Counted from the first letter of the stretch, positions 28,520 to 59,752 are shown. The stretch is 64,000 nucleotides of DNA from an uncultured Bacilli bacterium (GCA_934183255.1 CAKPSD010000001.1:517728-581727); one strand, 5' to 3'. Notes: a model not told the origin generated them from the sequence alone. Made by a program: numbers and translations.

Positions 28520-28595
28520 TGGTGATCCGTACAAGATTCGAACTTGTGACCCATTGATTAAGAGTCAATTGCTCTACCAGCTGAGCTAACGGACC
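28520..28595 (-). tRNA. tRNA-Lys (anticodon CTT)
   Basis: Cloverleaf folded by hand. Anticodon stem ATTGA/TCAAT with loop CTCTTAA. T-arm ACAAG-TTCGAAT-CTTGT. CCA is encoded. Confidence 0.85.
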
Positions 28596-42357: not shown

Positions 42358-42431
42358 TGGAGCAGGCGAGGGGAATCGAACCCCCGTAGTCAGCTTGGAA
42401 GGCTGAAGTTCTACCATTGAACTACGCCTGC
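42358..42431 (-). tRNA. tRNA-Gly (anticodon TCC)
   Basis: Manual fold: anticodon stem TCAGC/GCTGA with loop CTTCCAA. T-arm GGGGG-TTCGATT-CCCCT. Confidence 0.85.
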
Positions 42432-42473
42432 ATGTATATTTAAAGCAGTTATTCCACACACCAAGTTTTTTTT

Positions 42474-42550
42474 TGGTGACCCGTACGGGATTCGAACCCG
42501 TGAGTGCATCCTTGAGAGGGATGTGAGTTAAGCCACTTCTCCAACGGGCC
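42474..42550 (-). tRNA. tRNA-Glu (anticodon CTC)
   Basis: Manual fold: anticodon stem CATCC/GGATG with loop CTCTCAA. T-arm ACGGG-TTCGAAT-CCCGT. Confidence 0.75.
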
Positions 42551-42556
42551 TTTTAG

Positions 42557-42647
42557 TGGCGGAGCAAGAGGGACTCGAACCCTCGCACCAGTTTCCCGAT
42601 CTATATCCTTAGCAGGGATACCTCTTCACCAACTTGAGTATTGCTCC
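42557..42647 (-). tRNA. tRNA-Ser (anticodon GCT)
   Basis: Long variable arm. Anticodon stem TATCC/GGATA with loop CTGCTAA. Confidence 0.85.
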
Positions 42648-45186: not shown

Positions 45187-45219
45187 ATAAGCGAGTTATT
45201 TAATTCGCTTATTTTTTTA
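45187..45219. terminator. bidirectional rho-independent terminator
   Basis: ATAAGCGA-loop-TCGCTTAT followed by TTTTTTT. A-run upstream. Confidence 0.6.
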
Positions 45220-46519
45220 TTTTCGCTATATTATGATTCTTATAATTTTCATCATCCGTTACTTCCTTTATAACTTTAACAAAAGGAGGTATTTCTACAT
45301 CATCTGATTCTGTAAGCAATTCTACTTCTAATAAAGCATCTTTATTATTATCTTTAAATACATCTATTTCATAATAAGTCTTACCATAAGTTATACAATA
45401 TCTTGTTTTTCTTATTTGTCTATAAGAAGGATCAGCATTCATCAATAAATTTAGATATTCTTCCTTAGATAATCTTTTTTCTGTTTCTATTCTTTTTAAA
45501 TTTGATATATTCTTTTTAATTGTTTGATAATAAATATAATTACCATTTTTTCCTCTTTGCCTAACTCTAACTTCTTCATCATTATCACTAAACAAATATG
45601 TTTGAATAATTTCTACTTTTTCACAATTATCCATGCTTTCTAATACTTTTATATTTGGATACTCTATTAAATATTTTCTCTCTATTTCATAACCTATTGG
45701 CTCTTTTAAGAAAGAATCTATTTCTTTTAATAATTTCTTTATTTTTTCCTCAAAAGACACAGAATTATCTATTATTCTAAAATGAGGATGACCAGTCCAT
45801 GCAGCGATTATTCTATCATCCACTATTCTAGCTTCATCTATATTTTCTTGTCTTGCTGAATTGTTATCTTTTGTATAAAATTCTTCTGCTCCTTTTGCAC
45901 AACTCACAAGATGAAATACAGCATCATAATTATCACGCATTTCTATTTCATTAGTATTAAAGTCATTGCATATTTTTTGAAACTCTAATTCACTTATAAA
46001 GGCTTTAGAATCCAAAAGGCCTCTATCACAAACAATTAAAATTTTACCATCCATTAGTTTAGCAGCATTCATATATATTTTTTCTTTTTCTAATTGCAAT
46101 CCCACTATTGCCTTTTGAAAATCAAGTCTTGATTTACAAGTTTCATAATTTATTCCATTATTAATTAACTCAGTTGCGCTTTCATTTATAAACAATACTT
46201 TATATCCCTTTTTTATAAAATGATTTTGAATCCAACTTAAAGCTGTAGACTTTCCTGCACATGGACCACCAGTTATAACAATTTTAGTAATATTAATGTT
46301 TTCATTTTTATTATCTATTAAATATTCTAATTTCACATTAAAAACATCACATATTTTTTTTAAAACATCTACATTAGGTTTTGCCTTACCCATTTCCCAT
46401 TTAGAAACAGCTTTATTACTAACTCCTACTAATTCTCCTAATTTTTCTTGAGATATCTTACATTTCTTTCTTAATTCATATATTTTATTGCCAAACTCAT
46501 AATCATTCACTTTTAACAC
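45209..46519 (-). CDS. HTH-XRE / P-loop NTPase (NadR-RNK/AAA_28-like) / CYTH three-domain protein
   Basis: N-terminal Cro/CI HTH (ISQEKLGELVGVSNKAVSKWE). Walker A VITGGPCAGKST. C-terminal CYTH-like EIERKYL…EVRVRQ. Confidence 0.6.
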   Translation of the reverse strand: MLKVNDYEFGNKIYELRKKCKISQEKLGELVGVSNKAVSKWEMGKAKPNVDVLKKICDVFNVKLEYLIDNKNENINITKIVITGGPCAGKSTALSWIQNHFIKKGYKVLFINESATELINNGINYETCKSRLDFQKAIVGLQLEKEKIYMNAAKLMDGKILIVCDRGLLDSKAFISELEFQKICNDFNTNEIEMRDNYDAVFHLVSCAKGAEEFYTKDNNSARQENIDEARIVDDRIIAAWTGHPHFRIIDNSVSFEEKIKKLLKEIDSFLKEPIGYEIERKYLIEYPNIKVLESMDNCEKVEIIQTYLFSDNDEEVRVRQRGKNGNYIYYQTIKKNISNLKRIETEKRLSKEEYLNLLMNADPSYRQIRKTRYCITYGKTYYEIDVFKDNNKDALLEVELLTESDDVEIPPFVKVIKEVTDDENYKNHNIAKIKK

Positions 46520-46594: not shown

Positions 46595-47251
46595 CTAATT
46601 TGCTTTTTTAGTATTAACTTCTTTAAAATTAATTATTGATTCATTATGATAATCAAATATCTTCTTTGCTGCTTCATTTATAGATTTAATTGAAAATTCA
46701 TTTAATTTACACTCTTTTTCATAAACCTCTATAAAGTTTTCAAAATCATCTTCATATATAACAAACTCTTTTTTATTTGTTCCTTCTATTTTACTAGTAA
46801 CAACAGGCTTAGATAAGTAAACTATATTTACAAAATCTTCCATTGAATTATCTAGTAAATTAGATAAAATTCTAATTCTTTTTTCATTATATCTTAAAGG
46901 ATTTTCAACATGCACTAATTTATCTCTTTTATATAAAACCCACTTCTCATCTATTGCTTTAGCATTTAAATAACCATAATAACATTTACAAGCAATAACA
47001 TAAATATATTTATTACCAATCATAATATGATCAATTTTAATATATTTATTCTCTCTTATTTGAATAACAACATCACTTAAAAGTGGAAAATCATGGTCGA
47101 CTGCAAACCTCTTTAATTTTGCCGTTATTCTCTTCTTTTTCGTTAATCCAATTATTAAATTTTTTAAATCATCCATAAAAATATAACAAATTGAAAATAT
47201 AACTAATAAGAATAAAAATAAAATCATTAACCAAAGGCCTAATTTATCCAT
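46595..47251 (-). CDS. NERD-domain membrane-anchored protein
   Basis: N-terminal TM helix and NERD core KIDHIMIGNKYIYVIACK…W…ENP. Its start overlaps the deoD stop. Confidence 0.55.
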   Translation of the reverse strand: MDKLGLWLMILFLFLLVIFSICYIFMDDLKNLIIGLTKKKRITAKLKRFAVDHDFPLLSDVVIQIRENKYIKIDHIMIGNKYIYVIACKCYYGYLNAKAIDEKWVLYKRDKLVHVENPLRYNEKRIRILSNLLDNSMEDFVNIVYLSKPVVTSKIEGTNKKEFVIYEDDFENFIEVYEKECKLNEFSIKSINEAAKKIFDYHNESIINFKEVNTKKAN

Positions 47252-47961
47252 TATAACTCACTCGCTACTTCTAGACTTAATTTCATCATATTAGTAAAGC
47301 CATTTTGTCTCATTTCAGATGTTGTTACTTCCTTAGTAATAAAACTATCCGAAATACTTAATACAGTCATAGCTTTCTTTCCAAGTTTAGCAGCATTTAT
47401 ATATAAGGCATATGATTCCATCTCTACTGCTAAAACTCCAAGATTAGCCCATCTTTTCCAATACTCATTATCATTTTCATAAAAAATATCACTACTAAAT
47501 ACATTTCCAACATGATATCTATAATCATTTTCTCTACATATTCTAACAGCTTTTTCTACTAAATCAAATGAAGCTATTGCGCTATAAGTACCCCTTAAAT
47601 CAAATTGTGAAGCATAGTTAGAATTACTACATGCTCCGAGTGCTATTACGATATCTCCTATTTTAGCATCTTTATTATATGCTCCTGCTGTTCCTACTCT
47701 TATAATAGTATCTACATCATACTCTGTATATAATTCATAAGAGTAAATACCCATTGAAGGTATTCCCATACCACTACCTGCTACACTTATCTCTTTTCCT
47801 TTATAGTGACCTGTGTAACAATACATATTTCTTACTTTATTAACTAATTTATAATCATCAAAGAAATTTTCTGCTATATACTTTGCTCTAAGTGGATCTC
47901 CACACATTAAAACAGTCTTAGCTATTTCTCCCTTTTTTGCTTCATTATGTGCTGTTGGCAT
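47251..47961 (-). CDS. deoD: purine nucleoside phosphorylase, DeoD-type
   Basis: VLMCGDPLRAKYIAE and VEMES motifs. 236 aa. Confidence 0.9.
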   Translation of the reverse strand: MPTAHNEAKKGEIAKTVLMCGDPLRAKYIAENFFDDYKLVNKVRNMYCYTGHYKGKEISVAGSGMGIPSMGIYSYELYTEYDVDTIIRVGTAGAYNKDAKIGDIVIALGACSNSNYASQFDLRGTYSAIASFDLVEKAVRICRENDYRYHVGNVFSSDIFYENDNEYWKRWANLGVLAVEMESYALYINAAKLGKKAMTVLSISDSFITKEVTTSEMRQNGFTNMMKLSLEVASEL

Positions 47962-48437
47962 TATAATTCCTCACTTTCATATAAATCTATAACTTTTGTT
48001 TTTGCTATTATATCAGCTAAGTCTTTATTGTCATCTCTTAATATCATTATAATAGTAGATGCTATTGCTGTTATTGCTAAAGATCCAAAACCTATAAAAA
48101 TTCTACCAATTACTTCTCTAAAGAACATCGTTTTATAATCTACTTCTTCACCATTTTCTTTTACTATTTTAAGTTTAAATACTTTTTTTCCTAATGTTTG
48201 TCCATTAAATAATAAAGGAGTAACCATATAATAAAACATTAATAATAATCCATATAAAATTCCCCATCTAAACATATCTACAATAAATTTAGTAGTAACT
48301 AAATGTTCTCCTTGCTTAAGCATACTTATAATAAATGGAAGTTTCCATAAAGCAAGAAGCACTAATACTCCAAACACTATTCCAAAATCTACTATTGCAG
48401 CCATCACACGATGTCTTACTTTCGCTAATTTCATCAT
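47961..48437 (-). CDS. RDD-family membrane protein
   Basis: GQTLGKKVFKLKIV and RDD residues. 3 TM helices. Confidence 0.6.
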   Translation of the reverse strand: MMKLAKVRHRVMAAIVDFGIVFGVLVLLALWKLPFIISMLKQGEHLVTTKFIVDMFRWGILYGLLLMFYYMVTPLLFNGQTLGKKVFKLKIVKENGEEVDYKTMFFREVIGRIFIGFGSLAITAIASTIIMILRDDNKDLADIIAKTKVIDLYESEEL

Positions 48438-48445
48438 TTCACCCC

Positions 48446-49828
48446 TTAAACAAACAATGGTATTAATATTTCCTTAGCCATTGTAAAATATATTAAAATT
48501 GCAATTGCATCTGCTATTGTTGTAACTAATGGTCCTGCCATTACAGCCGGGTCTATTTTACATATTTTTGCTAAAATTGGTAATGTTGTAGCTATTAATT
48601 TAGAAACTACTACAACTAACATTAGACTAAGAGAAACAACCATAAATATAGAATTAGCATTTTTCTCTACTTCTACTATTCCTGTAATGTTTTCAAGCCA
48701 TAATAAGCCATAACAAATAATTGCTAAACTTCCCCCTACTAATATACCAACTACAAGTTCTTTTCTCAAGGCTTTAAGAAAATCTTTTGTGGTTATTGTA
48801 CCTAGTGAAAGTCCTCTTATAAGTAATGCTGTTGTTTGACTTCCTGCATTTCCTGCCATTCCTGTAATCATTGGCATAAATACTGTTAACACTGATATTG
48901 TAGCAATTGTAGATTCTGCTTTACTTAAAACAAAAATAGATACAACGGAAGCAAACATAAGAATAATTAGCCAAACTATTGTCTTCTTAAATAACTTAAT
49001 ATTTGATACTTCAAAATAATTATCTTCAAGAGGAACCATATGAGCCATCTTTTCGATATCTTCTGTAGCTTCATCATCAATAACATCAATGATATCATCC
49101 GCAGTAATAATTCCTAACATCTTCATTTCTTGGTTAACGACTGCTATTGAACTCAAATCGTATTTTTTAAAGTAATTAGCAACATCTTCTTTATCTTCAT
49201 CAACAACAACGCTAACTATATCTTTTTCCATGATATCTTTAATCTTTGTATCTTCTTCATTAAATAATATTTCTTTTAAAGATATGTATCCCTTTAATGT
49301 TCTTTTATTATCTACAATATAACAATAAGATATTGTTTCTGCTTCTTTTCCTTCTTTTCTTATCTTATTTAAAGCACTTTTACAAGTATCATTTTCCTTA
49401 AGTTCTATATACTCAATGGTCATTATAGATCCTGCACTATTTTCTCTATAACTCAAGATTTGATTTACTTCTCCTCTTAAATCTTTATCAATAGATTTTA
49501 AAATCTTTTTTACAATGTTTGATGGCATTTCTTCTATAAAATCTACTATATCATCTGTATATAATTCTTCAATAATATTTTTAACATCACTACTAGCTAA
49601 AACATTAACAAGTTTTTCTTTATACTCACTATCTAAATAACTAAAAACTTCTGCAGTTAAACTCGAAGGGACTGTTTTAAAAATAAAAATTGCTTTTTTT
49701 ACATCTAATTCATTAATTGCTTCTGCTAGATCTACACTATTGTAATATTCAAAAGCATTTCTTAATTTTACTACATCTTTTGATGTTATTATTTCATCTA
49801 GCATTTCTACTGTTACATCATTGCTCAT
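48446..49828 (-). CDS. mgtE: magnesium transporter MgtE
   Basis: N-domain, tandem CBS domains and a 5-TM C-terminal domain (PLVTTIADA). Confidence 0.9.
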   Translation of the reverse strand: MSNDVTVEMLDEIITSKDVVKLRNAFEYYNSVDLAEAINELDVKKAIFIFKTVPSSLTAEVFSYLDSEYKEKLVNVLASSDVKNIIEELYTDDIVDFIEEMPSNIVKKILKSIDKDLRGEVNQILSYRENSAGSIMTIEYIELKENDTCKSALNKIRKEGKEAETISYCYIVDNKRTLKGYISLKEILFNEEDTKIKDIMEKDIVSVVVDEDKEDVANYFKKYDLSSIAVVNQEMKMLGIITADDIIDVIDDEATEDIEKMAHMVPLEDNYFEVSNIKLFKKTIVWLIILMFASVVSIFVLSKAESTIATISVLTVFMPMITGMAGNAGSQTTALLIRGLSLGTITTKDFLKALRKELVVGILVGGSLAIICYGLLWLENITGIVEVEKNANSIFMVVSLSLMLVVVVSKLIATTLPILAKICKIDPAVMAGPLVTTIADAIAILIYFTMAKEILIPLFV

Positions 49829-49895: not shown

Positions 49896-49930
49896 TACTA
49901 AAAATAAAAGAGTTAGAACTTTCTAACCCT
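49896..49930 (-). terminator. putative terminator after ddl
   Basis: GGGTTAGAA-AGT-TCTAACTC hairpin overlapping the ddl stop, followed by a T-rich tract on the minus strand. Confidence 0.4.
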
Positions 49931-51035
49931 TTATTTTATTTGTGTTAAGATTAATTTTATTAAAAATATTCATTTTATCAATACTTTTAAGTAGTTTGTT
50001 TTCATAAAAATAATCTCTTTTACTGTTTTCAATTACCGTATCAAGCAATTCTAAAAAATCCATTTTATCTTTCCATAAATAATAAGAATACGATCCTGGT
50101 ATTGCATTAACTTCATTAACATATAATTTATCTTTATATAAGAAATCTATTCTTATTACTCCTTTTGCTTCAAATGATTTATAAATGGTTTTAGCTGTTT
50201 TTTCCATTTCTTTTTTTATTTTATCATCCATAATACAAGGAAATATTCTTTTTGAAGAAACCATTCCATTAACCTTTTCTCCGCCTTCATATTTTTGTGA
50301 ATAATCTAATATATCTTTACTTGATAACACTTCTTCAATACTTGATGTTAATATCTCTCCATTTTTTTCCACTACTGAAATATTGTATTCTCTTGCTTCG
50401 TTTAAGTACTCTTCTACTAAAACATTTTTATCATATTCAAATGCTACTTTTATTGCTTTCTCTAACTCCTCCTTATTATTAACTTTTTTTATTCCAATTG
50501 ATGATCCTAATGTGTTTGGTTTAACAATAAGTGGATAATTCATTTTATCTATTTCTTTTAAATCATCATCTTTATTTATCTCTACAAACTTAGAATTATT
50601 TATATTTAAACTATTTAATACTCTTTTAGTTAAACTTTTATTTTGTGCTAGTGAATAAAAAGACAATGAATCATTAATAACAGGTATCTTTTTAAACTTT
50701 AAATACGATAAAAGTGTACCATCTTCCATCCCCTTGCCATGCACTACAGGGAATACCATATCAAAATATACTTTCTTTTTTAATTTTCTTTTTAAGTAAC
50801 ATTTTTTATTATCTTTTTCTATTTTAACTTCATGTTTTTTCTTTAAAATCTTTTTTATATTTTTATATGTTTCTAAATCTTTTAATTCATTTAAATAATA
50901 TATCTTATTTTCTTTACTTATATAAGCAGGTATTACTGTATAACCAACACTTAAAGCATTCATTACTTGATTTGCTGTTATGACACTAATCTCGTGCTCC
51001 ACACTTTCTCCACCAAACAAAACTAATATTCTCAT
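49923..51035 (-). CDS. ddl: D-alanine--D-alanine ligase family ATP-grasp enzyme
   Basis: N-terminal ILVLFGGESVEHEISV, central GSSIG and C-terminal EVNAIPG motifs. A ~30-aa Lys-rich insertion. Confidence 0.8.
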   Translation of the reverse strand: MRILVLFGGESVEHEISVITANQVMNALSVGYTVIPAYISKENKIYYLNELKDLETYKNIKKILKKKHEVKIEKDNKKCYLKRKLKKKVYFDMVFPVVHGKGMEDGTLLSYLKFKKIPVINDSLSFYSLAQNKSLTKRVLNSLNINNSKFVEINKDDDLKEIDKMNYPLIVKPNTLGSSIGIKKVNNKEELEKAIKVAFEYDKNVLVEEYLNEAREYNISVVEKNGEILTSSIEEVLSSKDILDYSQKYEGGEKVNGMVSSKRIFPCIMDDKIKKEMEKTAKTIYKSFEAKGVIRIDFLYKDKLYVNEVNAIPGSYSYYLWKDKMDFLELLDTVIENSKRDYFYENKLLKSIDKMNIFNKINLNTNKIKG

Positions 51036-51045
51036 ATTATTCCTC

Positions 51046-52545
51046 CTATTTTAAATATATGCGTGGCAAATCATTTTCTATTAAAACTATTTTATTTTCT
51101 TTATCACAACTTCTAACAAACTCAAATGCTTCCAAAAAATCTTTCTTTATAAACACTTTATTTTCATCAAATTTACCACTAATTAGTCCCTCTTTAATAG
51201 TCATGGCGTTTTGCTCTACTAATACAACTAAATCAACTTTATCACTCATATATTTTCCTAATTCATAATTAATATTTTCACTATTTTTCCCTTGTTCTAT
51301 TATTCCTGGAGTAATAACTATCTTATACCCATCCATCATACTTAAAATATCTATTGCATTTTTAAAACCAGATTCATTAGAATTAAAAGCATCATCAATA
51401 ACTTTAATATTGCCTAGTTTTTTTAACTCTAATCTATGCTCTATTTGTTTTATGTTACTAGTTAATTTATCTATATTTTCTAAACTAATATTAAGCCCCA
51501 CTAAAACACCAATTGCACCTAGTACATTTGACACATTATGTTTACCTAATAGTTTTATTCTTACATGCTTTATAAATTTATTATAAACATACAAATCAAA
51601 CTCAGATCCTTCTTTATTAAAAGAAATATTTTTACAAGTTATATCTTCATTATCTTTAATTCCATATGTTATAACATTGCATTTAAATTCTTTAATTGAT
51701 GCTTTTAGATATTTATTATCTCCATTAATAACTAATGCTTCATTTTCTTTTAATATCTTCCCAAGTTTTATCTTTTCTTTTCTTATATTTTCTATATTTT
51801 TAAATGACAATAAATGTTGAGGTCCTACTTCTGTTATAAGAGAAATATTAGGTTTAACTACGTTTAATAACTTATCCATACCTCCTACCTTATCAACCCC
51901 ATATTCACAAATAAAATAATCATCTAAAGAATTACAATTTTCTCTAATACTTTTTATAATACCTACTTTTGTATTATATGATTTAGGAGTCTTACTAACA
52001 TTTACTATTTCACTTAACATATCATATAAAATGTTTTTACAACTGGTCTTTCCATAACTTCCCGTTATACCTATAACATCTATATCTTTTATCATTTTTT
52101 GTGCATCTTTTTTATAATTAAATAAAATTATTTTTTCTATTAAAGAAGATATATAATGAACTATTAATATATAAAAAATAATAAAACTATTAACTATTAG
52201 TAATAAGTTAATTTTACTTACTTTAAATAAAACTAAAAGATATGTAATAGTAAAATAAACTATGATAAATCGTTTTACTCTACTAGTGAATTTTATTTTG
52301 CTACTACTAATAAAACTTATATTAGTAATTATTAAAGAAGTAATTAAAGACACATATTTATATTTAGTAAAAATTCCCATTAAAAAGATTAAAAATAATA
52401 AACATGTAACTATTATCTTTTTCTTTTTTTCATATAGCATATATTTTTGAACTTCATAATGATTACATTGCATTATATAATATTCATTTAAAATAATAGG
52501 AAGAAATATAAAAGGGAAAATGATACTTATTATTATATTGATCAC
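51046..52545 (-). CDS. murF: MurF-like Mur ligase with N-terminal 5-TM membrane domain
   Basis: GITGSYGKTS P-loop and the MurF-type C-terminal motif VIDDAFNSNESGF. The first ~150 aa form five hydrophobic helices. GTG start with AGGAGG 7 nt upstream, embedded in the stop region of the preceding gene. Confidence 0.7.
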   Translation of the reverse strand: MINIIISIIFPFIFLPIILNEYYIMQCNHYEVQKYMLYEKKKKIIVTCLLFLIFLMGIFTKYKYVSLITSLIITNISFISSSKIKFTSRVKRFIIVYFTITYLLVLFKVSKINLLLIVNSFIIFYILIVHYISSLIEKIILFNYKKDAQKMIKDIDVIGITGSYGKTSCKNILYDMLSEIVNVSKTPKSYNTKVGIIKSIRENCNSLDDYFICEYGVDKVGGMDKLLNVVKPNISLITEVGPQHLLSFKNIENIRKEKIKLGKILKENEALVINGDNKYLKASIKEFKCNVITYGIKDNEDITCKNISFNKEGSEFDLYVYNKFIKHVRIKLLGKHNVSNVLGAIGVLVGLNISLENIDKLTSNIKQIEHRLELKKLGNIKVIDDAFNSNESGFKNAIDILSMMDGYKIVITPGIIEQGKNSENINYELGKYMSDKVDLVVLVEQNAMTIKEGLISGKFDENKVFIKKDFLEAFEFVRSCDKENKIVLIENDLPRIYLK

Positions 52546-52546
52546 T

Positions 52547-53251
52547 TTATTTCCTCCTTAAATGCTTTTGAATTACAAGCCTAGTAAACTCTATATTTTT
52601 TATATATGCAAAATGATCTCCATTCATTATATATAATTCACTATTTTTTAATTTTTTATTTAACTCACAAGCCTTTTTTAAAGGAACTTTTTCATCATCT
52701 TTTCCCCATATTAATATTACTGGTATTTCAATATTTCTTACTAATTTATCATAATGAGTATTAACTACATTTACAAAAAATGATTTCATTTTTTTAGGAC
52801 AATTTTTATAATCTTCACTTCCCTCATTACCTTTTATTTTTAAATGTTTTTTTAATTTATATTTAATAATTTTATAATAATAATTTAAATGTCTTTTAGG
52901 TTTTAAAATAGGACTAGCAATAACAAATAATTTATCTATATCTTTATATTTTAAATAGTATTCAACTGCTACTTTTCCTCCAAAAGAATGTCCTACTATA
53001 TACTTAGGTAACAAATTATTATCCTCTAAAAATTTCCTTATGTATTCAGTATATTCTTCAATATTTTTAACATTATTAAAATCAGATTTTCCAAACCCAG
53101 GTAAATCTATAAGAACACATTTATATTTGTTTTTTAAAGTTTCTATTAAAGGAATCATACTTTCTTTACTTTGTCCCCATCCATGTAAAAAAAGAATAAT
53201 ATCTCCTTTACCCTCTACTACACATGATATATTATTAGGCATTATACCCAC
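52547..53251 (-). CDS. alpha/beta hydrolase
   Basis: HGWGQS and GHSFGG motifs. Confidence 0.6.
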   Translation of the reverse strand: MGIMPNNISCVVEGKGDIILFLHGWGQSKESMIPLIETLKNKYKCVLIDLPGFGKSDFNNVKNIEEYTEYIRKFLEDNNLLPKYIVGHSFGGKVAVEYYLKYKDIDKLFVIASPILKPKRHLNYYYKIIKYKLKKHLKIKGNEGSEDYKNCPKKMKSFFVNVVNTHYDKLVRNIEIPVILIWGKDDEKVPLKKACELNKKLKNSELYIMNGDHFAYIKNIEFTRLVIQKHLRRK

Positions 53252-53288: not shown

Positions 53289-53314
53289 TAAAAAAAGGTG
53301 AAATTAATCACCTA
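53289..53314 (-). terminator. rho-independent terminator
   Basis: AGGTGA-AATTAA-TCACCT with an A7 run on the plus strand, which is a U-tract on the minus strand. Confidence 0.45.
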
Positions 53315-54199
53315 TCTACGCATATTAGGAAAGCTTTTTTCATATAAAGATATATACTTAGGAGCACCATCTCTTACCGCTTCATCAATATAGCTTTTAA
53401 GATTATTATTTCTTGCTTTTACAAAATAATCATAAGAATCATTTATATTATAATAATCTGAATATCTAGTATTTTTAATTCTTTCATCGCCACACATAAT
53501 TCCCATAAAATAACAAGCTCTTGGATCTGATTTGTCTGAATTAAATGCTCTTATAGTATTCTCACAAAAGCTTTCTATATTAAATAAAGATGCTACTTTT
53601 GTACTTTGATATAAATAATATTTAGCATAAATAACATATGCTGCTACTTTGGCACTTCTTTCTTTTTTCGTTATTAATAATTTTGCCCATGCCATTGCTG
53701 CTTCTTTATTAGCATCTGTTGAATCATATACATAAGCACCTTGACTACCTAATCTTATACAGTTTAATCCATATTCTGTCATCGCAGGAACATTGCCATT
53801 AAGTGCTGCATCATACATATACTTTCTATAAATATGTCCTATTTTTTCATAAGCAGTTGCATTAGGTTTTGTTTTTTTGTAATTTGCAATTTCTGCATTA
53901 GATGATTCAATCACTTTAATAAATTCTTCTGGATCTACTTTACGTAAAGTTTCTCCTAAATAGAATTCTGCTCTTCCTTTAGTTGCTTTATCACATTTTG
54001 CATTTTTATAAACTTTGTAAAGATGATTATATGCTTGCTCATATTTGCCATTTTCACAAGCAATAACACCACAATTTACTTCTTCATCTAAACTTTGAGG
54101 ATCTAAAATTTCTGTCAAGTTTTGTATTTTGTTTTCTTCTAGCATAAAGTAGCACCCTTCTTTCAATACAATTTTATAATACGAAAAGAAATATTTCAA
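53312..54199 (-). CDS. hypothetical protein with Sel1/TPR-like repeats
   Basis: Ala/Tyr-rich repeat pattern (…AAMAWAKLL…). The true start is probably the internal Met (MLEENK). Confidence 0.3.
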   Translation of the reverse strand: MKYFFSYYKIVLKEGCYFMLEENKIQNLTEILDPQSLDEEVNCGVIACENGKYEQAYNHLYKVYKNAKCDKATKGRAEFYLGETLRKVDPEEFIKVIESSNAEIANYKKTKPNATAYEKIGHIYRKYMYDAALNGNVPAMTEYGLNCIRLGSQGAYVYDSTDANKEAAMAWAKLLITKKERSAKVAAYVIYAKYYLYQSTKVASLFNIESFCENTIRAFNSDKSDPRACYFMGIMCGDERIKNTRYSDYYNINDSYDYFVKARNNNLKSYIDEAVRDGAPKYISLYEKSFPNMRR

Positions 54200-54793: not shown

Positions 54794-54867
54794 TGGTGCT
54801 GCTTGTAAGAATCGAACTTACGCTTAAGCCTTACCATGGCTTCGGTCTACCATTAACCTAAAGTAGC
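54794..54867 (-). tRNA. tRNA-Thr (anticodon GGT)
   Basis: Manual fold: anticodon stem AAGCC/GGCTT with loop ATGGTAA. T-arm GTAAG-TTCGATT-CTTAC. One A-C mismatch in the acceptor stem. Confidence 0.7.
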
Positions 54868-54900: not shown

Positions 54901-55497
54901 TCAATTATTTTCTATATGAAAAGCTATATAATTTAAAATTTCTAATTCATTATAATAATTACTAACATCTTCCTTAACAAAATAATTATTAATATGATTT
55001 TTTACCTTTTCTAATTGTTCTTCACTTAGTGTTAGTTTTCCATATTGCTTATTAGGCATTCTTCCTATTCTTCTTTTACTAACAGACCTTATGGCATCTA
55101 GTTTTAAATAAGATCTAGTTAATCCATCATCATTTAATTCATTTATAATTCCTAAATCAAGACATAACATTGAATTATAAGAATTTCTACTAGTAAGAGG
55201 AATAACTACTACATTTCCTAAATCCACTGCCCAAACCACTGCATAATGACCTTTAGTAAACACATCACTAAGTTCATTTCCTACATTGACACCAAACTCT
55301 ACCCATACAATATCTCCTCTTTTTATATCATCTGGTTGAGCCCCATAACTTACTTTAAGTACACTTTGCCTAAAATATAATGTTTTCTTTTCTAACCATA
55401 ACAAATATTGAAGCACTAAATCTGGATCTAGATTAATTAAATTTTTTTTAATGTTTTTAAAAATTTTTTCCTCTACTAATTTATAGCTATTGTGCAT
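54901..55497 (-). CDS. PemK/MazF-fold protein with ~58-aa N-terminal extension
   Basis: RGDIVWVEFGVNVGNELSDV…HYAVVWAVDLGNVVVIPLTS parallels MazF/EndoA RGDVYFADL…GSEQ…RPVLVIQND…PT. 198 aa. Confidence 0.45.
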   Translation of the reverse strand: MHNSYKLVEEKIFKNIKKNLINLDPDLVLQYLLWLEKKTLYFRQSVLKVSYGAQPDDIKRGDIVWVEFGVNVGNELSDVFTKGHYAVVWAVDLGNVVVIPLTSRNSYNSMLCLDLGIINELNDDGLTRSYLKLDAIRSVSKRRIGRMPNKQYGKLTLSEEQLEKVKNHINNYFVKEDVSNYYNELEILNYIAFHIENN

Positions 55498-58908: not shown

Positions 58909-58984
<76 letters not shown>

Positions 58985-58987
58985 AAA

Positions 58988-59064
58988 TGGCGGTCCTGAC
59001 GGGGATCGAACCCGCGATCTTCTCCGTGACAGGGAGACATGTTAAACCACTACACCACAGAACC
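58988..59064 (-). tRNA. tRNA-Asp (GTC)
   Basis: Anticodon stem TCTCC/GGAGA with loop CTGTCAC. Discriminator G. Confidence 0.85.
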
Positions 59065-59141
<77 letters not shown>

Positions 59142-59161
59142 ATATATAAATGTAAACAAGC

Positions 59162-59252
59162 TGGCGGAGAAACAGGGATTCGAACCCTGGCGGGCCTCTC
59201 AGCCCCTACCGGTTTTCAAGACCGGACCCTTCAACCACTTGGGTATTTCTCC
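59162..59252 (-). tRNA. tRNA-Ser (TGA)
   Basis: Long variable arm. Anticodon stem CCGGT/ACCGG with loop CTTGAAA. Confidence 0.85.
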
Positions 59253-59267
59253 ATATTAATTTTTAAG

Positions 59268-59344
59268 TGGTGGACCCTGTAGGACTCGAACCTACGACCA
59301 ACCGGTTATGAGCCGGTAGCTCTAACCAACTGAGCTAAGGGTCC
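59268..59344 (-). tRNA. tRNA-Ile2 (CAT, lysidine type) or tRNA-Met
   Basis: GGACCCTTAGCTCAGTTGGTTAGAGC… with loop CTCATAA. Resembles Bacillus tRNA-Ile(LAU). Confidence 0.7.
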
Positions 59345-59351
59345 GATACAA

Positions 59352-59428
59352 TGGTAGCGGAAATAGGACTTGAACCTACGACCTGTCGGGTATGAACCGA
59401 ATGCTCTAGCCAACTGAGCTATTCCGCC
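59352..59428 (-). tRNA. elongator tRNA-Met (CAT)
   Basis: The …CGGTTCATACCCG… anticodon arm is typical of Firmicute elongator Met. Confidence 0.75.
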
Positions 59429-59439
59429 ATAAAATAAAA

Positions 59440-59515
59440 TGGTGGAGCCAAGGGGGATCGAACCCCTGACCCCCTGCGTGCAAGGCAGGTGCTCTCCCAG
59501 CTGAGCTATGACCCC
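59440..59515 (-). tRNA. tRNA-Ala (TGC)
   Basis: G3-U70 identity pair. Anticodon loop CTTGCAC. Confidence 0.85.
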
Positions 59516-59522
59516 ACTAACA

Positions 59523-59599
59523 TGGTCGGAATGACAGGATTTGAACCTGCAACCCTCTGGTCCCAAACCAGATGCACTACCAAGTTGTGCTACATTCCG
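59523..59599 (-). tRNA. tRNA-Pro (TGG)
   Basis: Anticodon stem TCTGG/CCAGA with loop TTTGGGA. Confidence 0.85.
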
Positions 59600-59677
59600 A
59601 TTACAAATGCTTAAATATAATAACAAAACACAACTAATATTTCAATACTTTTTTAAATTTTTTTAAAGTTATTGAAA

Positions 59678-59752
59678 TGGAGGTTCCTGTCGGACTCGAA
59701 CCGGCGATCATTGAGTTGCAGTCAATTGCCTTACCAACTTGGCTAAGGAACC
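59678..59752 (-). tRNA. tRNA-Cys (GCA)
   Basis: Anticodon stem ATTGA/TCAAT with loop CTGCAAC. Discriminator U73. Confidence 0.8.

What the first reader, a model, noticed from the sequence alone, without database searches (positions are those of the whole stretch)
49923..53251. MurF-like ligase with its N-terminal domain replaced by a five-helix membrane domain, translationally coupled to an alpha/beta hydrolase and followed by ddl
The Mur-ligase core, with GITGSYGKTS and the MurF-specific DDAFNSNESGF motif, starts about 150 aa into the ORF. The preceding residues form five clear hydrophobic helices instead of the soluble MurF N-domain.

The GTG start is served by an AGGAGG embedded in the last codons of the upstream hydrolase gene (…HLRRK*), which argues that the extension is really translated. 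A D-Ala-D-Ala ligase homologue with a Lys-rich insertion follows 10 nt downstream.

This is either a membrane-tethered housekeeping MurF, which would be unusual, or a paralogous ATP-grasp plus Mur-ligase plus hydrolase module. Such a module could make or remodel a peptide-containing envelope polymer.
Basis: partly seen in the sequence, partly recalled or inferred. Interest (0 to 1): 0.6.

Follow-up and report, generated by a model that had tools for sequence, protein, structure and literature searches.

The report
Membrane-embedded MurF in hydrolase–murF–ddl operon
This is a three-gene cell-wall operon in which the enzyme that adds D-Ala-D-Ala to the peptidoglycan precursor (MurF) carries a conserved five-helix membrane domain instead of its usual soluble N-terminal domain; the type is widespread in gut Firmicutes, has been noted in Helicobacter pylori, and has never been explained mechanistically.

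Summary
On the minus strand, an α/β hydrolase (53251–52547), a 499-aa MurF-like ligase (52545–51046) and a Ddl (51035–49923) form one tightly packed unit. Terminator-like hairpins flank it on both sides. The ligase core matches MurF best, but residues 1–153 form a five-helix membrane domain that replaces the canonical N-domain.

The extension is not lineage noise:
- All 120 best homologues carry it.
- A profile of the domain finds 2,093 cluster representatives, always at the N-terminus of a MurF-like ligase.
- It holds invariant polar residues on its cytoplasmic face (Q26, Y30, T87, R89, K91, R92, E137).
- The hydrolase–murF–ddl trio is kept in about 75 of 81 loci labelled Erysipelotrichaceae, Lachnospiraceae, Oscillospiraceae and others.

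Papers report that H. pylori MurF is essential, is 494 aa long and has four predicted N-terminal transmembrane helices. C. jejuni has ddl, an α/β hydrolase that may be essential, and murF clustered together. The window's hydrolase is closest to the H. pylori EstV family.

Best reading: this is the organism's housekeeping, membrane-integral MurF module. I could not show that it is the only murF and ddl in the genome. The real family-specific insertion lies in the ω-loop.

The parts
53296..53313 (-). Terminator-like hairpin ending the upstream gene. It marks the 5' boundary of the three-gene unit.
   Evidence: 6-bp stem with 3 G-C pairs, followed by a T-run. Two such sites were found in 6.1 kb, against 0.8 expected from shuffles.
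52547..53251 (-). EstV-like α/β hydrolase, 234 aa, cytoplasmic. Catalytic triad Ser89 (GHSFGG), Asp186 and His213; family motif GSxDY at 144-148.
   Evidence: Abhydrolase_1, Hydrolase_4; best NCBIfam match is NF058580 (EstV family lipase), 142.7 bits, E 1.4e-41, over the full length; all 41 scanned partners match NF058580 with the best E-value of any family; conserved residues.
52553..52558 (-). Shine-Dalgarno AGGAGG for murF, inside the last codons of the hydrolase gene and 7 nt before the GTG start.
   Evidence: sequence read directly. Across 76 relatives the median gap from the hydrolase end to the murF start is 8.5 nt, and many pairs overlap.
52087..52545 (-). N-terminal integral-membrane domain of the ligase (residues 1-153). 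It has five helices in an N-out/C-in arrangement. Invariant residues on the cytoplasmic face: Q26, Y30, T87, R89, K91, R92, E137, A148.
   Evidence: (N-domain model pLDDT 95.3); 2,093 cluster representatives; the domain is found only at the N-terminus of MurF-like ligases; no solved structural relative; no counterpart in canonical MurF.
51046..52086 (-). MurF-type ligase core (residues 154-499 plus the stop codon). It comprises the central ATP-binding domain with P-loop GITGSYGKTS and the C-terminal domain with DDAFNSN.
   Evidence: Mur_ligase_M and Mur_ligase_C. TIGR01143 scores 219 bits, and the next Mur family (MurC) scores 85; the best Foldseek matches are MurF structures 4qf5, 4qdi, 3zl8, 1gg4 and 4cvk; hhalign E 3e-56.
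49923..51035 (-). D-Ala–D-Ala ligase homologue, 370 aa, long form. The ω-loop keeps K248-Y249. It carries a family-specific insertion followed by invariant M258.
   Evidence: 240 and 226 bits, just below the curated cut-offs; best PDB matches are VanG at 141 bits, S. aureus Ddl at 134 and H. pylori Ddl at 130.: ω-loop alignment of 75 partners.
49907..49932 (-). Terminator-like hairpin overlapping the ddl stop codon. It marks the 3' boundary of the unit.
   Evidence: 11-bp stem followed by a T-run.

Best explanation
The three genes form one operon that carries out the last soluble steps of peptidoglycan precursor synthesis at the membrane.

- The 499-aa ligase is this organism's MurF. It uses ATP to add that dipeptide to the stem tripeptide of the muramyl precursor (inferred from the intact MurF catalytic core).
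- The soluble N-terminal domain, which in canonical MurF holds the UDP end of the substrate, has been replaced by a five-helix integral-membrane domain (shown).
- That domain is not a passive anchor. Its only invariant residues are polar or basic and all lie on the cytoplasmic face (FQxxHYE after helix 1, TxRVKR before helix 4, E137 at the exit of helix 5). They most likely form the replacement binding platform for the nucleotide-diphosphate end of the substrate. They would also hold the active site at the membrane surface, next to MraY (inferred).
- The upstream cytoplasmic serine hydrolase is translationally coupled, co-inherited and related to H. pylori EstV. It is an obligate partner whose reaction is unknown. 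My guess is that it edits or clears a mis-made or dead-end precursor or dipeptide.

The module is the Firmicutes counterpart of the essential membrane-anchored MurF of H. pylori and of the ddl–hydrolase–murF cluster of C. jejuni.
For: MurF identity of the core:
- NCBIfam murF scores 219 bits, against 85 or less for MurC, MurD and MurE.
- The best structural matches are MurF structures.
- hhalign against canonical MurF gives E 3e-56 over residues 154-490.
- The catalytic motifs are invariant.

The N-domain is real and functional:
- It is present in all 120 top homologues.
- There are 2,093 representative clusters, and the domain is always N-terminal to a MurF core.
- The models are confident: pLDDT 92 for the whole protein and 95 for the domain alone.
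- Invariant polar residues sit only in the loops that the positive-inside rule places in the cytoplasm.

The operon:
- The Shine-Dalgarno site lies inside the hydrolase gene; the two intergenic gaps are 1 nt and 10 nt.
- Terminator-like hairpins flank the unit.
- The trio is present in 76 (hydrolase) and 73 (ddl) of 81 loci, and nothing else is conserved around it.
- Median intergenic gaps across relatives are 8.5 and 17 nt.
- Pairwise distances of the three proteins correlate (Spearman 0.80-0.85), and clusters follow the taxonomic labels.

Housekeeping character:
- ddl…mgtE…deoD synteny is shared with distant relatives, and one relative has cdaA-ybbR-glmM next door.
- H. pylori MurF (HP0740) is 1485 bp (PMC6501431), has four predicted N-terminal transmembrane domains and is called an inner-membrane protein (PMC9448923), and is essential (PMC9507126).
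- In C. jejuni, ddl (Cj0798c), the α/β hydrolase Cj0796c (deletion attempts failed) and murF (Cj0795c) are clustered (PMC5530802, PMC3229698).
- All 41 scanned partner hydrolases match the EstV family with the best E-value of any family.
- E. rhusiopathiae is annotated with a single murF, away from mraY-murD (PMC9637936).
Against: - I could not scan any complete genome that carries the trio for a second, canonical murF or ddl. 'Sole MurF' is therefore inferred, not shown.
[quoted passage not shown] Co-occurrence in some trio-bearing Clostridia therefore remains possible.
- The trio also occurs in Pseudalkalibacillus, a Bacillaceae genus expected (from general knowledge) to have the ordinary ddl-murF pair. 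There it sits next to an M15 D-Ala-D-Ala dipeptidase and a class B penicillin-binding protein. That looks more like an accessory cell-wall module.
- All three proteins score below the curated NCBIfam cut-offs for MurF, Ddl and EstV.
- The Ddl ω-loop insertion could change its specificity.
- Homology of this N-domain to the H. pylori one was not tested, because I could not reach that sequence.
- I could not obtain model coordinates, so the position of the conserved loops relative to the active site is inferred from topology only.
Confidence: 0.66

Rival explanations
1. The trio is a paralogous, accessory cell-wall module. The genome also has a canonical murF and ddl. The trio would make or repair an alternative precursor, for example a different C-terminal dipeptide made by the ω-loop-modified Ddl. 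Or it would work only under particular conditions such as stress, sporulation or antibiotic exposure.
For: - All three proteins are divergent subfamilies that score below the curated cut-offs.
- The Ddl has a family-specific ω-loop insertion, and its best PDB match is the D-Ala:D-Ser ligase VanG.
- In Pseudalkalibacillus the trio is followed by an M15 D-Ala-D-Ala dipeptidase and a penicillin-binding protein.
- Canonical MurF is widespread in Clostridia MAGs (metagenome-assembled genomes).
Against: - The ω-loop keeps the Lys-Tyr pair of D-Ala-D-Ala ligases, not the His of VanA or the Phe of D-Lac ligases (the residue rule is from general knowledge).
- VanG-type NCBIfam models score far below their cut-offs (176 against 495).
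- The trio is inherited vertically, with conserved housekeeping synteny, in small low-GC genomes.
- The H. pylori and C. jejuni counterparts are the essential, only annotated murF (PMC9507126, PMC3229698).
- No Mur ligase other than this one lies in the 64-kb window.
- No copy of this type was found on any plasmid in PLSDB.
Confidence: 0.2
2. The ligase acts on a lipid-linked substrate. The membrane domain would bind undecaprenyl-pyrophosphate, and the enzyme would add D-Ala-D-Ala to lipid I or lipid II tripeptide. The hydrolase would supply or edit that substrate. By analogy, MurT/GatD works on lipid II without a UDP-binding N-domain.
For: - The UDP-binding N-domain is absent.
- An invariant basic cluster, TxRVKR, together with Tyr, Gln and Glu residues, sits exactly at the membrane-cytoplasm interface.
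- The domain fold has no solved relative.
- MurT is among the structural matches of the core.
Against: - There is no direct evidence.
- The same residues could equally bind UDP.
- MraY normally needs the pentapeptide (general knowledge).
- H. pylori MurF is treated in the literature as the ordinary last cytoplasmic step (PMC9507126).
Confidence: 0.1
3. It is not a MurF. It would be a CapB/PgsB-, cyanophycin-synthetase- or Mpl-like ligase that builds or recycles another peptide polymer.
For: It has a membrane anchor plus a Mur-ligase fold, as in PgsB (general knowledge). There are weak NCBIfam matches to cyanophycin synthetase (34 bits) and Mpl (37 bits).
Against: MurF models score 219 bits, and no PgsB model matches. 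The cyanophycin cut-off is 850 bits. The MurF-type DDxxNxN motif and the adjacent Ddl fit a D-Ala-D-Ala-adding enzyme.
Confidence: 0.02
4. The N-terminal extension is an annotation artefact. The true start would be an internal ATG or GTG near the ligase core.
For: The start codon is a non-ATG GTG in an AT-rich genome, where long spurious ORF extensions are easy to get.
Against: - A strong AGGAGG lies 7 nt upstream.
- The extension is conserved, with invariant residues, in hundreds of clusters down to about 20% identity.
- The fold prediction is confident.
- No canonical N-domain is left to make a functional short MurF.
Confidence: 0.01

Closest known systems
Helicobacter pylori MurF (HP0740) and the Campylobacter jejuni ddl (Cj0798c) – α/β hydrolase (Cj0796c) – murF (Cj0795c) cluster
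   Same: - Similar length: 494 aa in H. pylori against 499 aa here.
- Predicted N-terminal transmembrane helices ahead of a MurF core (PMC9448923, PMC6501431).
- An α/β hydrolase just upstream of murF, with ddl nearby (PMC5530802).
- The window's hydrolase is closest to the H. pylori EstV family.
   Different: - Four helices were predicted in H. pylori; five are found here.
- The gene order is ddl…hydrolase-murF there and hydrolase-murF-ddl here.
- The phylum differs (Campylobacterota against Bacillota).
- Sequence homology of the membrane domains was not tested here.
- That EstV is HP0739, lying between ddlA (HP0738) and murF, rests on my memory only.
Canonical three-domain MurF (E. coli 1GG4, A. 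baumannii 4QF5/4QDI, T. maritima 3ZL8, P. aeruginosa 4CVK)
   Same: The central and C-terminal domains, the catalytic motifs and the fold match.
   Different: The soluble N-terminal domain of about 100 aa is absent and replaced by a 153-aa membrane domain. The protein scores below the TIGR01143 cut-off (219 against 288.6).
ddl-murF operon of Bacillus, Staphylococcus and Streptococcus (general knowledge)
   Same: The housekeeping ddl and murF lie next to each other, outside the dcw cluster.
   Different: The order is reversed here, a hydrolase gene is added, and MurF is membrane-integral.
MurT/GatD lipid II amidotransferase
   Same: It is a Mur-ligase-fold enzyme without the nucleotide-binding N-domain. 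It works at the membrane on a lipid-linked precursor together with a partner hydrolase-type subunit. It appears among the structural matches.
   Different: MurT is soluble, has a DUF1727 C-domain and amidates D-iGlu. Similarity here is far weaker than to MurF.
VanT membrane-bound serine racemase (general knowledge)
   Same: It is a precedent for a normally soluble precursor-pathway enzyme fused to an N-terminal multi-span membrane domain.
   Different: The enzyme and the membrane domain are unrelated to those here, and VanT belongs to resistance operons.

Membership tests
MurF (UDP-MurNAc-tripeptide:D-Ala-D-Ala ligase; TIGR01143; PF01225+PF08245+PF02875) | Central ATP-binding domain with P-loop GxxGKT/S and the Mg/catalytic Glu and His residues | tested here: met
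   PF08245 at residues 160-347, E 2.7e-41. G162, S163, G165, K166, T167, E214 and H244 are invariant.
MurF (UDP-MurNAc-tripeptide:D-Ala-D-Ala ligase; TIGR01143; PF01225+PF08245+PF02875) | C-terminal domain with a DDxYNANP-type motif | tested here: met
   PF02875 at residues 370-489. In DDAFNSN, D384, N388 and N390 are invariant and D385, F387 and S389 are at least 90% conserved. The motif aligns to the canonical D-C-Y-N-A-S-P.
MurF (UDP-MurNAc-tripeptide:D-Ala-D-Ala ligase; TIGR01143; PF01225+PF08245+PF02875) | Soluble N-terminal domain (PF01225 region; positions 1-73 of TIGR01143) | tested here: not met
   No Pfam match in residues 1-159. The TIGR01143 alignment starts at model position 74. 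hhalign aligns only residues 154-490.
MurF (UDP-MurNAc-tripeptide:D-Ala-D-Ala ligase; TIGR01143; PF01225+PF08245+PF02875) | Score at or above the curated family cut-off | tested here: not met
   219.2 bits against a cut-off of 288.6. The shortfall is consistent with the missing N-domain.
MurF (UDP-MurNAc-tripeptide:D-Ala-D-Ala ligase; TIGR01143; PF01225+PF08245+PF02875) | Closer to MurF than to the other Mur ligases in sequence and in fold | tested here: met
   MurF scores 219 bits, MurC 85, MurD 70 and MurE 59. The top nine Foldseek matches are MurF structures.
MurF (UDP-MurNAc-tripeptide:D-Ala-D-Ala ligase; TIGR01143; PF01225+PF08245+PF02875) | Catalyses addition of D-Ala-D-Ala to UDP-MurNAc-tripeptide | not testable with these tools
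   This needs an enzyme assay.
Membrane-anchored MurF of the H. pylori type | Several N-terminal transmembrane helices preceding a MurF core, total length about 495 aa | tested here: met
   (499 aa, five helices). The literature values for H. pylori come from PMC9448923 and PMC6501431.
Membrane-anchored MurF of the H. pylori type | An EstV-type α/β hydrolase gene directly upstream, with ddl in the same cluster | tested here: met
   The C. jejuni arrangement is described in PMC5530802.
Membrane-anchored MurF of the H. pylori type | Sequence homology of the membrane domain to that of HP0740 or Cj0795c | not tested
   No Campylobacterota sequence could be reached.
Membrane-anchored MurF of the H. 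pylori type | It is the only, essential murF of the genome | not testable with these tools
   No whole genome with the trio was accessible. There is no other Mur ligase in the 64-kb window.
EstV family lipase (NF058580) | Score at or above the equivalog cut-off | tested here: not met
   142.7 bits against a cut-off of 300. NF058580 has the best E-value among the NCBIfam families matched by the 41 scanned partners, so the window's hydrolase is a related family, not a member.
EstV family lipase (NF058580) | α/β-hydrolase Ser-Asp-His triad | tested here: met
   S89, D186 and H213 are invariant in 41 sequences.
D-alanine–D-alanine ligase (TIGR01205 / PRK01966) | Dala_Dala_lig_N and Dala_Dala_lig_C architecture, with the ω-loop Lys-Tyr of D-Ala-D-Ala-forming enzymes | tested here: met
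   PF01820 and PF07478. K248 and Y249 are at least 90% conserved in 75 partners.
D-alanine–D-alanine ligase (TIGR01205 / PRK01966) | Score at or above the curated cut-off | tested here: not met
   240 bits against 310 (NF002527) and 226.4 against 245.65 (TIGR01205). There is a family-specific ω-loop insertion.
   Cyanophycin synthetase scores 34 bits (cut-off 850) and Mpl 37 bits (cut-off 389). No PgsB or MurT model is listed.

The most novel reading that the evidence does not exclude
The membrane domain and the EstV-like hydrolase would define an unrecognised membrane-level step in peptidoglycan precursor synthesis. The invariant basic and aromatic patch at the membrane interface would bind the undecaprenyl-(pyro)phosphate carrier. 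MurF would then either act on lipid-linked tripeptide or be gated by carrier-lipid availability. The hydrolase, which may be essential, would proofread the stem-peptide terminus. This would hold in a large share of gut Firmicutes as well as in Campylobacterota.
Probability: 0.12. Interest if true: 0.85.

Novelty: new member of a known kind. Interest (0 to 1): 0.5.

Why it matters
Textbooks treat MurC to MurF as soluble cytoplasmic enzymes. A membrane-integral MurF has been noted only in passing for H. pylori.

This locus shows that the same design, with a fixed hydrolase partner and a distinctive Ddl, is a conserved unit in loci labelled Erysipelotrichaceae, Lachnospiraceae, Oscillospiraceae and related groups. 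These include many gut bacteria. The membrane domain also carries invariant residues on its cytoplasmic face.

That turns two vague observations into testable questions:
- How is the substrate recognised without the UDP-binding domain?
- What reaction does the co-inherited serine hydrolase perform?

Both proteins are potential narrow-spectrum targets, because they differ from the MurF of Bacillales, Lactobacillales and Proteobacteria. The finding also flags that curated MurF and Ddl models miss this whole subfamily by score.

Tried and rejected
**Is this the only murF?**
- The single genome-contig scan went on defining the family.
- I searched with a canonical Clostridia MurF and compared contig lengths with those of the trio loci. 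There was no overlap.
- PLSDB contains some mislabelled chromosomes. Acetoanaerobium, Fusobacterium, Bacillus sp. N5-665 and Monoglobus have canonical MurF only, and no record carries the membrane type.
- The Pusillibacter hit was an isolated murD, not a dcw cluster.
- The look-up of encoding contigs returned only short contigs for the window's own protein, although a contig longer than 1 Mb exists.

**Getting an H. pylori or C. jejuni sequence to test N-domain homology**
- Blair 2018 and Ruiz 2007 are not held in the library.
- Four attempts to make the H. pylori Ddl entry 2pvp print in a PDB alignment failed.
- One protein-database search was left unused, because no query I could build would rank Campylobacterota proteins among the 120 listed.

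**Fold searches**
- Foldseek against the PDB found nothing for the N-domain.
- A profile of the hydrolases singled out no solved family member.

**Ideas considered and dropped**
- CapB, cyanophycin synthetase and Mpl.
- A mis-called start codon.
- A VanG-type D-Ala-D-Ser ligase.
- Horizontal transfer of the Pseudalkalibacillus copy from Clostridia. Its nearest neighbours are equally distant Bacilli- and Clostridia-labelled sequences, at about 45% identity.

**Literature**
Searches for a described membrane MurF in Firmicutes found nothing. A 2023 survey of Mur-enzyme fusions does not mention transmembrane fusions.

Full report
**What is in the window**

The region 49923–53251 holds three co-directional genes on the minus strand:
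- an α/β hydrolase, 53251..52547, 234 aa;
- a MurF-like ligase, 52545..51046, 499 aa, GTG start;
- a D-Ala–D-Ala ligase homologue, 51035..49923, 370 aa.

The sequence shows AGGAGG at 52558–52553, inside the last hydrolase codons. The hydrolase stop TAA is at 52549–52547. One base follows, then the GTG. The gap between murF and ddl is 10 nt.

The scan found two terminator-like hairpins in 6.1 kb, against 0.8 expected. They lie just upstream of the hydrolase gene (53313–53296) and across the ddl stop codon (49932–49907). The three genes are therefore a discrete transcription unit. The window has about 26% G+C and a strongly negative GC skew. It contains no other Mur ligase.

**The ligase**

Pfam finds only the Mur ligase middle domain (160–347) and C-terminal domain (370–489).

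NCBIfam's murF model is by far the best match. It scores 219 bits, against 85 for MurC, 70 for MurD and 59 for MurE. Cyanophycin synthetase, Mpl and FolC score 22–37 bits. The murF alignment starts at model position 74, and the score stays below the curated cut-off of 288.6.

I built a profile of 110 family members and compared it with a profile of 36 canonical Clostridia MurFs. It aligns residues 154–490 to canonical residues 104–444 (probability 100%, E 3e-56, 28% identity). Nothing aligns for residues 1–153.

The AlphaFold model is confident (pLDDT 92.2, pTM 0.82). Its best PDB matches are MurF from A. baumannii, T. maritima, E. coli and P. aeruginosa, over about 365 columns. These columns cover the two ligase domains only.

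The P-loop GITGSYGKTS, E214, H244, the HN motif (H336, N340), R371 and the core of DDAFNSN are invariant or nearly invariant in the family. The core is therefore a MurF, and the canonical N-domain has been replaced rather than extended.

**The N-terminal domain**

Hydropathy and the model give helices at 2–27 (kinked), 40–59, 63–78, 88–105 and 111–152. The last helix runs out of the membrane into the ligase.

A model of residues 1–156 alone reaches pLDDT 95.3. Foldseek finds no solved relative for it; the best E-value is 1.6.

Across 110 homologues, loops 1 and 3 and the post-helix-5 segment carry 3.3, 6.1 and 5.5 Lys+Arg on average. The N-terminus and loops 2 and 4 carry 0.2, 1.0 and 0.6. This indicates an N-out/C-in topology.

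The domain is poorly conserved overall: 22% identity among distant members, against 41% for the core. Yet it holds strictly invariant polar residues: Q26 and Y30 (motif FQxxHYExxRY), T87, R89, K91 and R92 (motif TxRVKR), E137 and A148. All of them lie in the segments predicted to be cytoplasmic.

That pattern is what a functional surface looks like, not a plain anchor. My inference is that this surface substitutes for the lost UDP-binding domain. I could not obtain model coordinates to measure distances to the active site.

**How widespread it is**

All 120 best database homologues (34–99% identity) are 485–532 aa long and have the same hydrophobic N-terminus, apart from obvious fragments.

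A profile of the N-domain alone was searched against 1.84 billion cluster representatives. It finds 2,093 proteins at E ≤ 1e-3 and 919 at E ≤ 1e-10. Among the 150 best listed, the domain sits at the N-terminus in all but one (a 330-aa fragment in which the match starts at residue 57). The proteins are either 475–560 aa long or fragments that run into the P-loop or stop at a contig end. I saw no other architecture and no stand-alone form.

A scan of species-representative genomes returned 80 loci. They are labelled:
- Erysipelotrichaceae (including Amedibacillus dolichus DSM 3991, Holdemania and Longicatena), 'Bacilli', 'Mycoplasmatota/Tenericutes' and a Haloplasma MAG (metagenome-assembled genome);
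- Lachnospiraceae, Oscillospiraceae, Acutalibacteraceae, Ruminococcus and Acidaminobacter;
- two Pseudalkalibacillus isolates.

NCBI names these proteins MurF or, more recently, 'Mur ligase family protein'.

**The trio is the conserved unit**

tblastn with the window's proteins finds the hydrolase directly upstream in 76 of 81 loci and Ddl directly downstream in 73 of 81. Clustering of all flanking ORFs shows nothing else conserved in more than about nine loci.

Median intergenic distances are 8.5 nt (hydrolase to murF, often overlapping) and 17 nt (murF to ddl).

Pairwise distances of the three proteins correlate (Spearman 0.80–0.85). MurF clusters separate the Clostridia-labelled loci from the Bacilli- and Erysipelotrichaceae-labelled ones. 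The trio is therefore co-inherited, largely vertically.

In the Bacilli-type relatives the wider synteny is also kept. A ddl…mgtE…deoD arrangement occurs in the window and in L045, and deoD follows ddl directly in L001. L001 additionally has cdaA–ybbR–glmM upstream and a Nudix gene between murF and ddl.

**The partners**

*Hydrolase.* It has an invariant Ser89–Asp186–His213 triad and a family motif GSxDY. I saw no signal peptide when reading the sequence. Its best NCBIfam match is the EstV family lipase of H. pylori (142.7 bits, E 1.4e-41, full length, below the cut-off of 300). All 41 scanned partner hydrolases match that model, and its best E-value beats the next family by 13 orders of magnitude. 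No solved structure is a clear family member.

*Ddl.* It has the normal two-domain architecture and scores just below the curated cut-offs. Its best PDB matches are VanG (141 bits), S. aureus Ddl (134 bits) and H. pylori Ddl (130 bits). The true family hallmark is in the ω-loop. After the conserved Lys248–Tyr249 there is a Gly/Ser/Lys-rich insertion, 7 residues long here and up to about 40 in relatives. It is followed by KGM.S..R.IPA with an invariant Met. The retained Tyr points to D-Ala-D-Ala formation; this residue rule comes from general knowledge. The effect of the insertion is unknown.

**Link to what is known**

Literature searches for a membrane MurF in Firmicutes found nothing. A 2023 survey of Mur-enzyme fusions does not mention transmembrane fusions.

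For H. pylori, however:
[quoted passage not shown] 2018) and treats MurF as an inner-membrane protein.
- PMC6501431 gives murF = HP0740, 1485 bp (494 aa).
- PMC9507126 calls it an essential enzyme of the last cytoplasmic step. MurF co-purifies with the shape proteins Csd5, Csd7 and CcmA.

For C. jejuni:
- PMC5530802 describes ddl (Cj0798c) lying just upstream of Cj0796c, an α/β-fold hydrolase whose deletion failed, with MurF (Cj0795c) in the same cluster.
- PMC3229698 includes cj0795c and cj0798c in a gene list within its section on essential-gene prediction.

From memory only, EstV is HP0739 and lies between ddlA (HP0738) and murF (HP0740).

The module in the window therefore looks like the Firmicutes version of a housekeeping arrangement already glimpsed in Campylobacterota. 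I could not obtain a Campylobacterota sequence to test whether the membrane domains are homologous.

**What remains open**

I could not run it, because no complete genome carrying the trio was accessible.

For the sole-copy reading:
- the vertical, syntenic inheritance in small low-GC genomes;
- the Campylobacterota precedent;
- the single annotated murF of E. rhusiopathiae, located away from mraY–murD (PMC9637936).

Against it:
- In Pseudalkalibacillus the trio is followed by an M15 D-Ala-D-Ala dipeptidase and a class B penicillin-binding protein. It probably co-exists there with the ordinary Bacillaceae genes (the co-existence is inferred).

My estimates are about 0.66 for a housekeeping membrane MurF module in this organism and about 0.2 for a paralogous cell-wall module. 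I give about 0.1 to the more radical idea that the enzyme works on, or senses, the lipid-linked precursor.

**Verdict**

The best label is a new member of a known but barely studied kind: membrane-integral MurF with an EstV-like hydrolase and Ddl. What this analysis adds:
- the breadth of the family across gut Firmicutes;
- the exclusivity of the membrane domain to MurF;
- its invariant cytoplasm-facing motifs;
- the strict hydrolase–murF–ddl coupling;
- the Ddl ω-loop signature.

I rate interest as moderate.

Noticed in passing
window 49923-51035 (Ddl residues ~245-262) and the Ddl genes of L002-L081: The Ddl proteins that accompany the membrane MurF share an ω-loop insertion of variable length, rich in Gly, Ser and Lys. 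It is 7 aa here and up to about 40 aa elsewhere. It follows the conserved Lys-Tyr and is followed by an invariant Met in KGM.S..R.IPA. Its effect on substrate choice is unknown.
   Followed up: partly
L075 9098-9823 and 10724-12802 (Pseudalkalibacillus sp. A8, NZ_CP174509): In this Bacillaceae genome the hydrolase–murF–ddl trio is followed by a Peptidase_M15 D-Ala-D-Ala dipeptidase and a class B penicillin-binding protein. This hints at an accessory cell-wall cluster in that lineage.
   Followed up: partly
L001 11611-12210: A Nudix hydrolase gene sits between the membrane murF and ddl in a distant relative with a 1.96-Mb circular contig. cdaA–ybbR–glmM lie just upstream of the trio there.
   Followed up: no
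window 58912-59752 and 42361-42647: There are clusters of 10 and 3 tRNA genes on the minus strand, plus single tRNAs at 28523-28595 and 54797-54867.
   Followed up: no
window 54901-55497 (-): A PemK/MazF-like toxin domain occupies residues 59-172, preceded by an N-terminal extension of about 58 aa. I saw no obvious adjacent antitoxin ORF.
   Followed up: no
window 45209-46519 (-) and 46595-47251 (-): A fusion protein combining HTH_3, AAA_28 (NadR-like kinase) and CYTH domains lies next to a NERD-domain membrane protein.
   Followed up: no
window 53312-54199 (-): The 295-aa ORF upstream of the operon has no Pfam match and is not conserved next to the trio in other loci. A called gene of 277 aa at the same place in L082 also has no Pfam hit.
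   Followed up: no
window 47251-49828 (-): Downstream of ddl lie mgtE, an RDD-family membrane protein and a deoD-type purine nucleoside phosphorylase. mgtE and deoD also follow ddl in L045, and deoD follows it in L001.
   Followed up: partly
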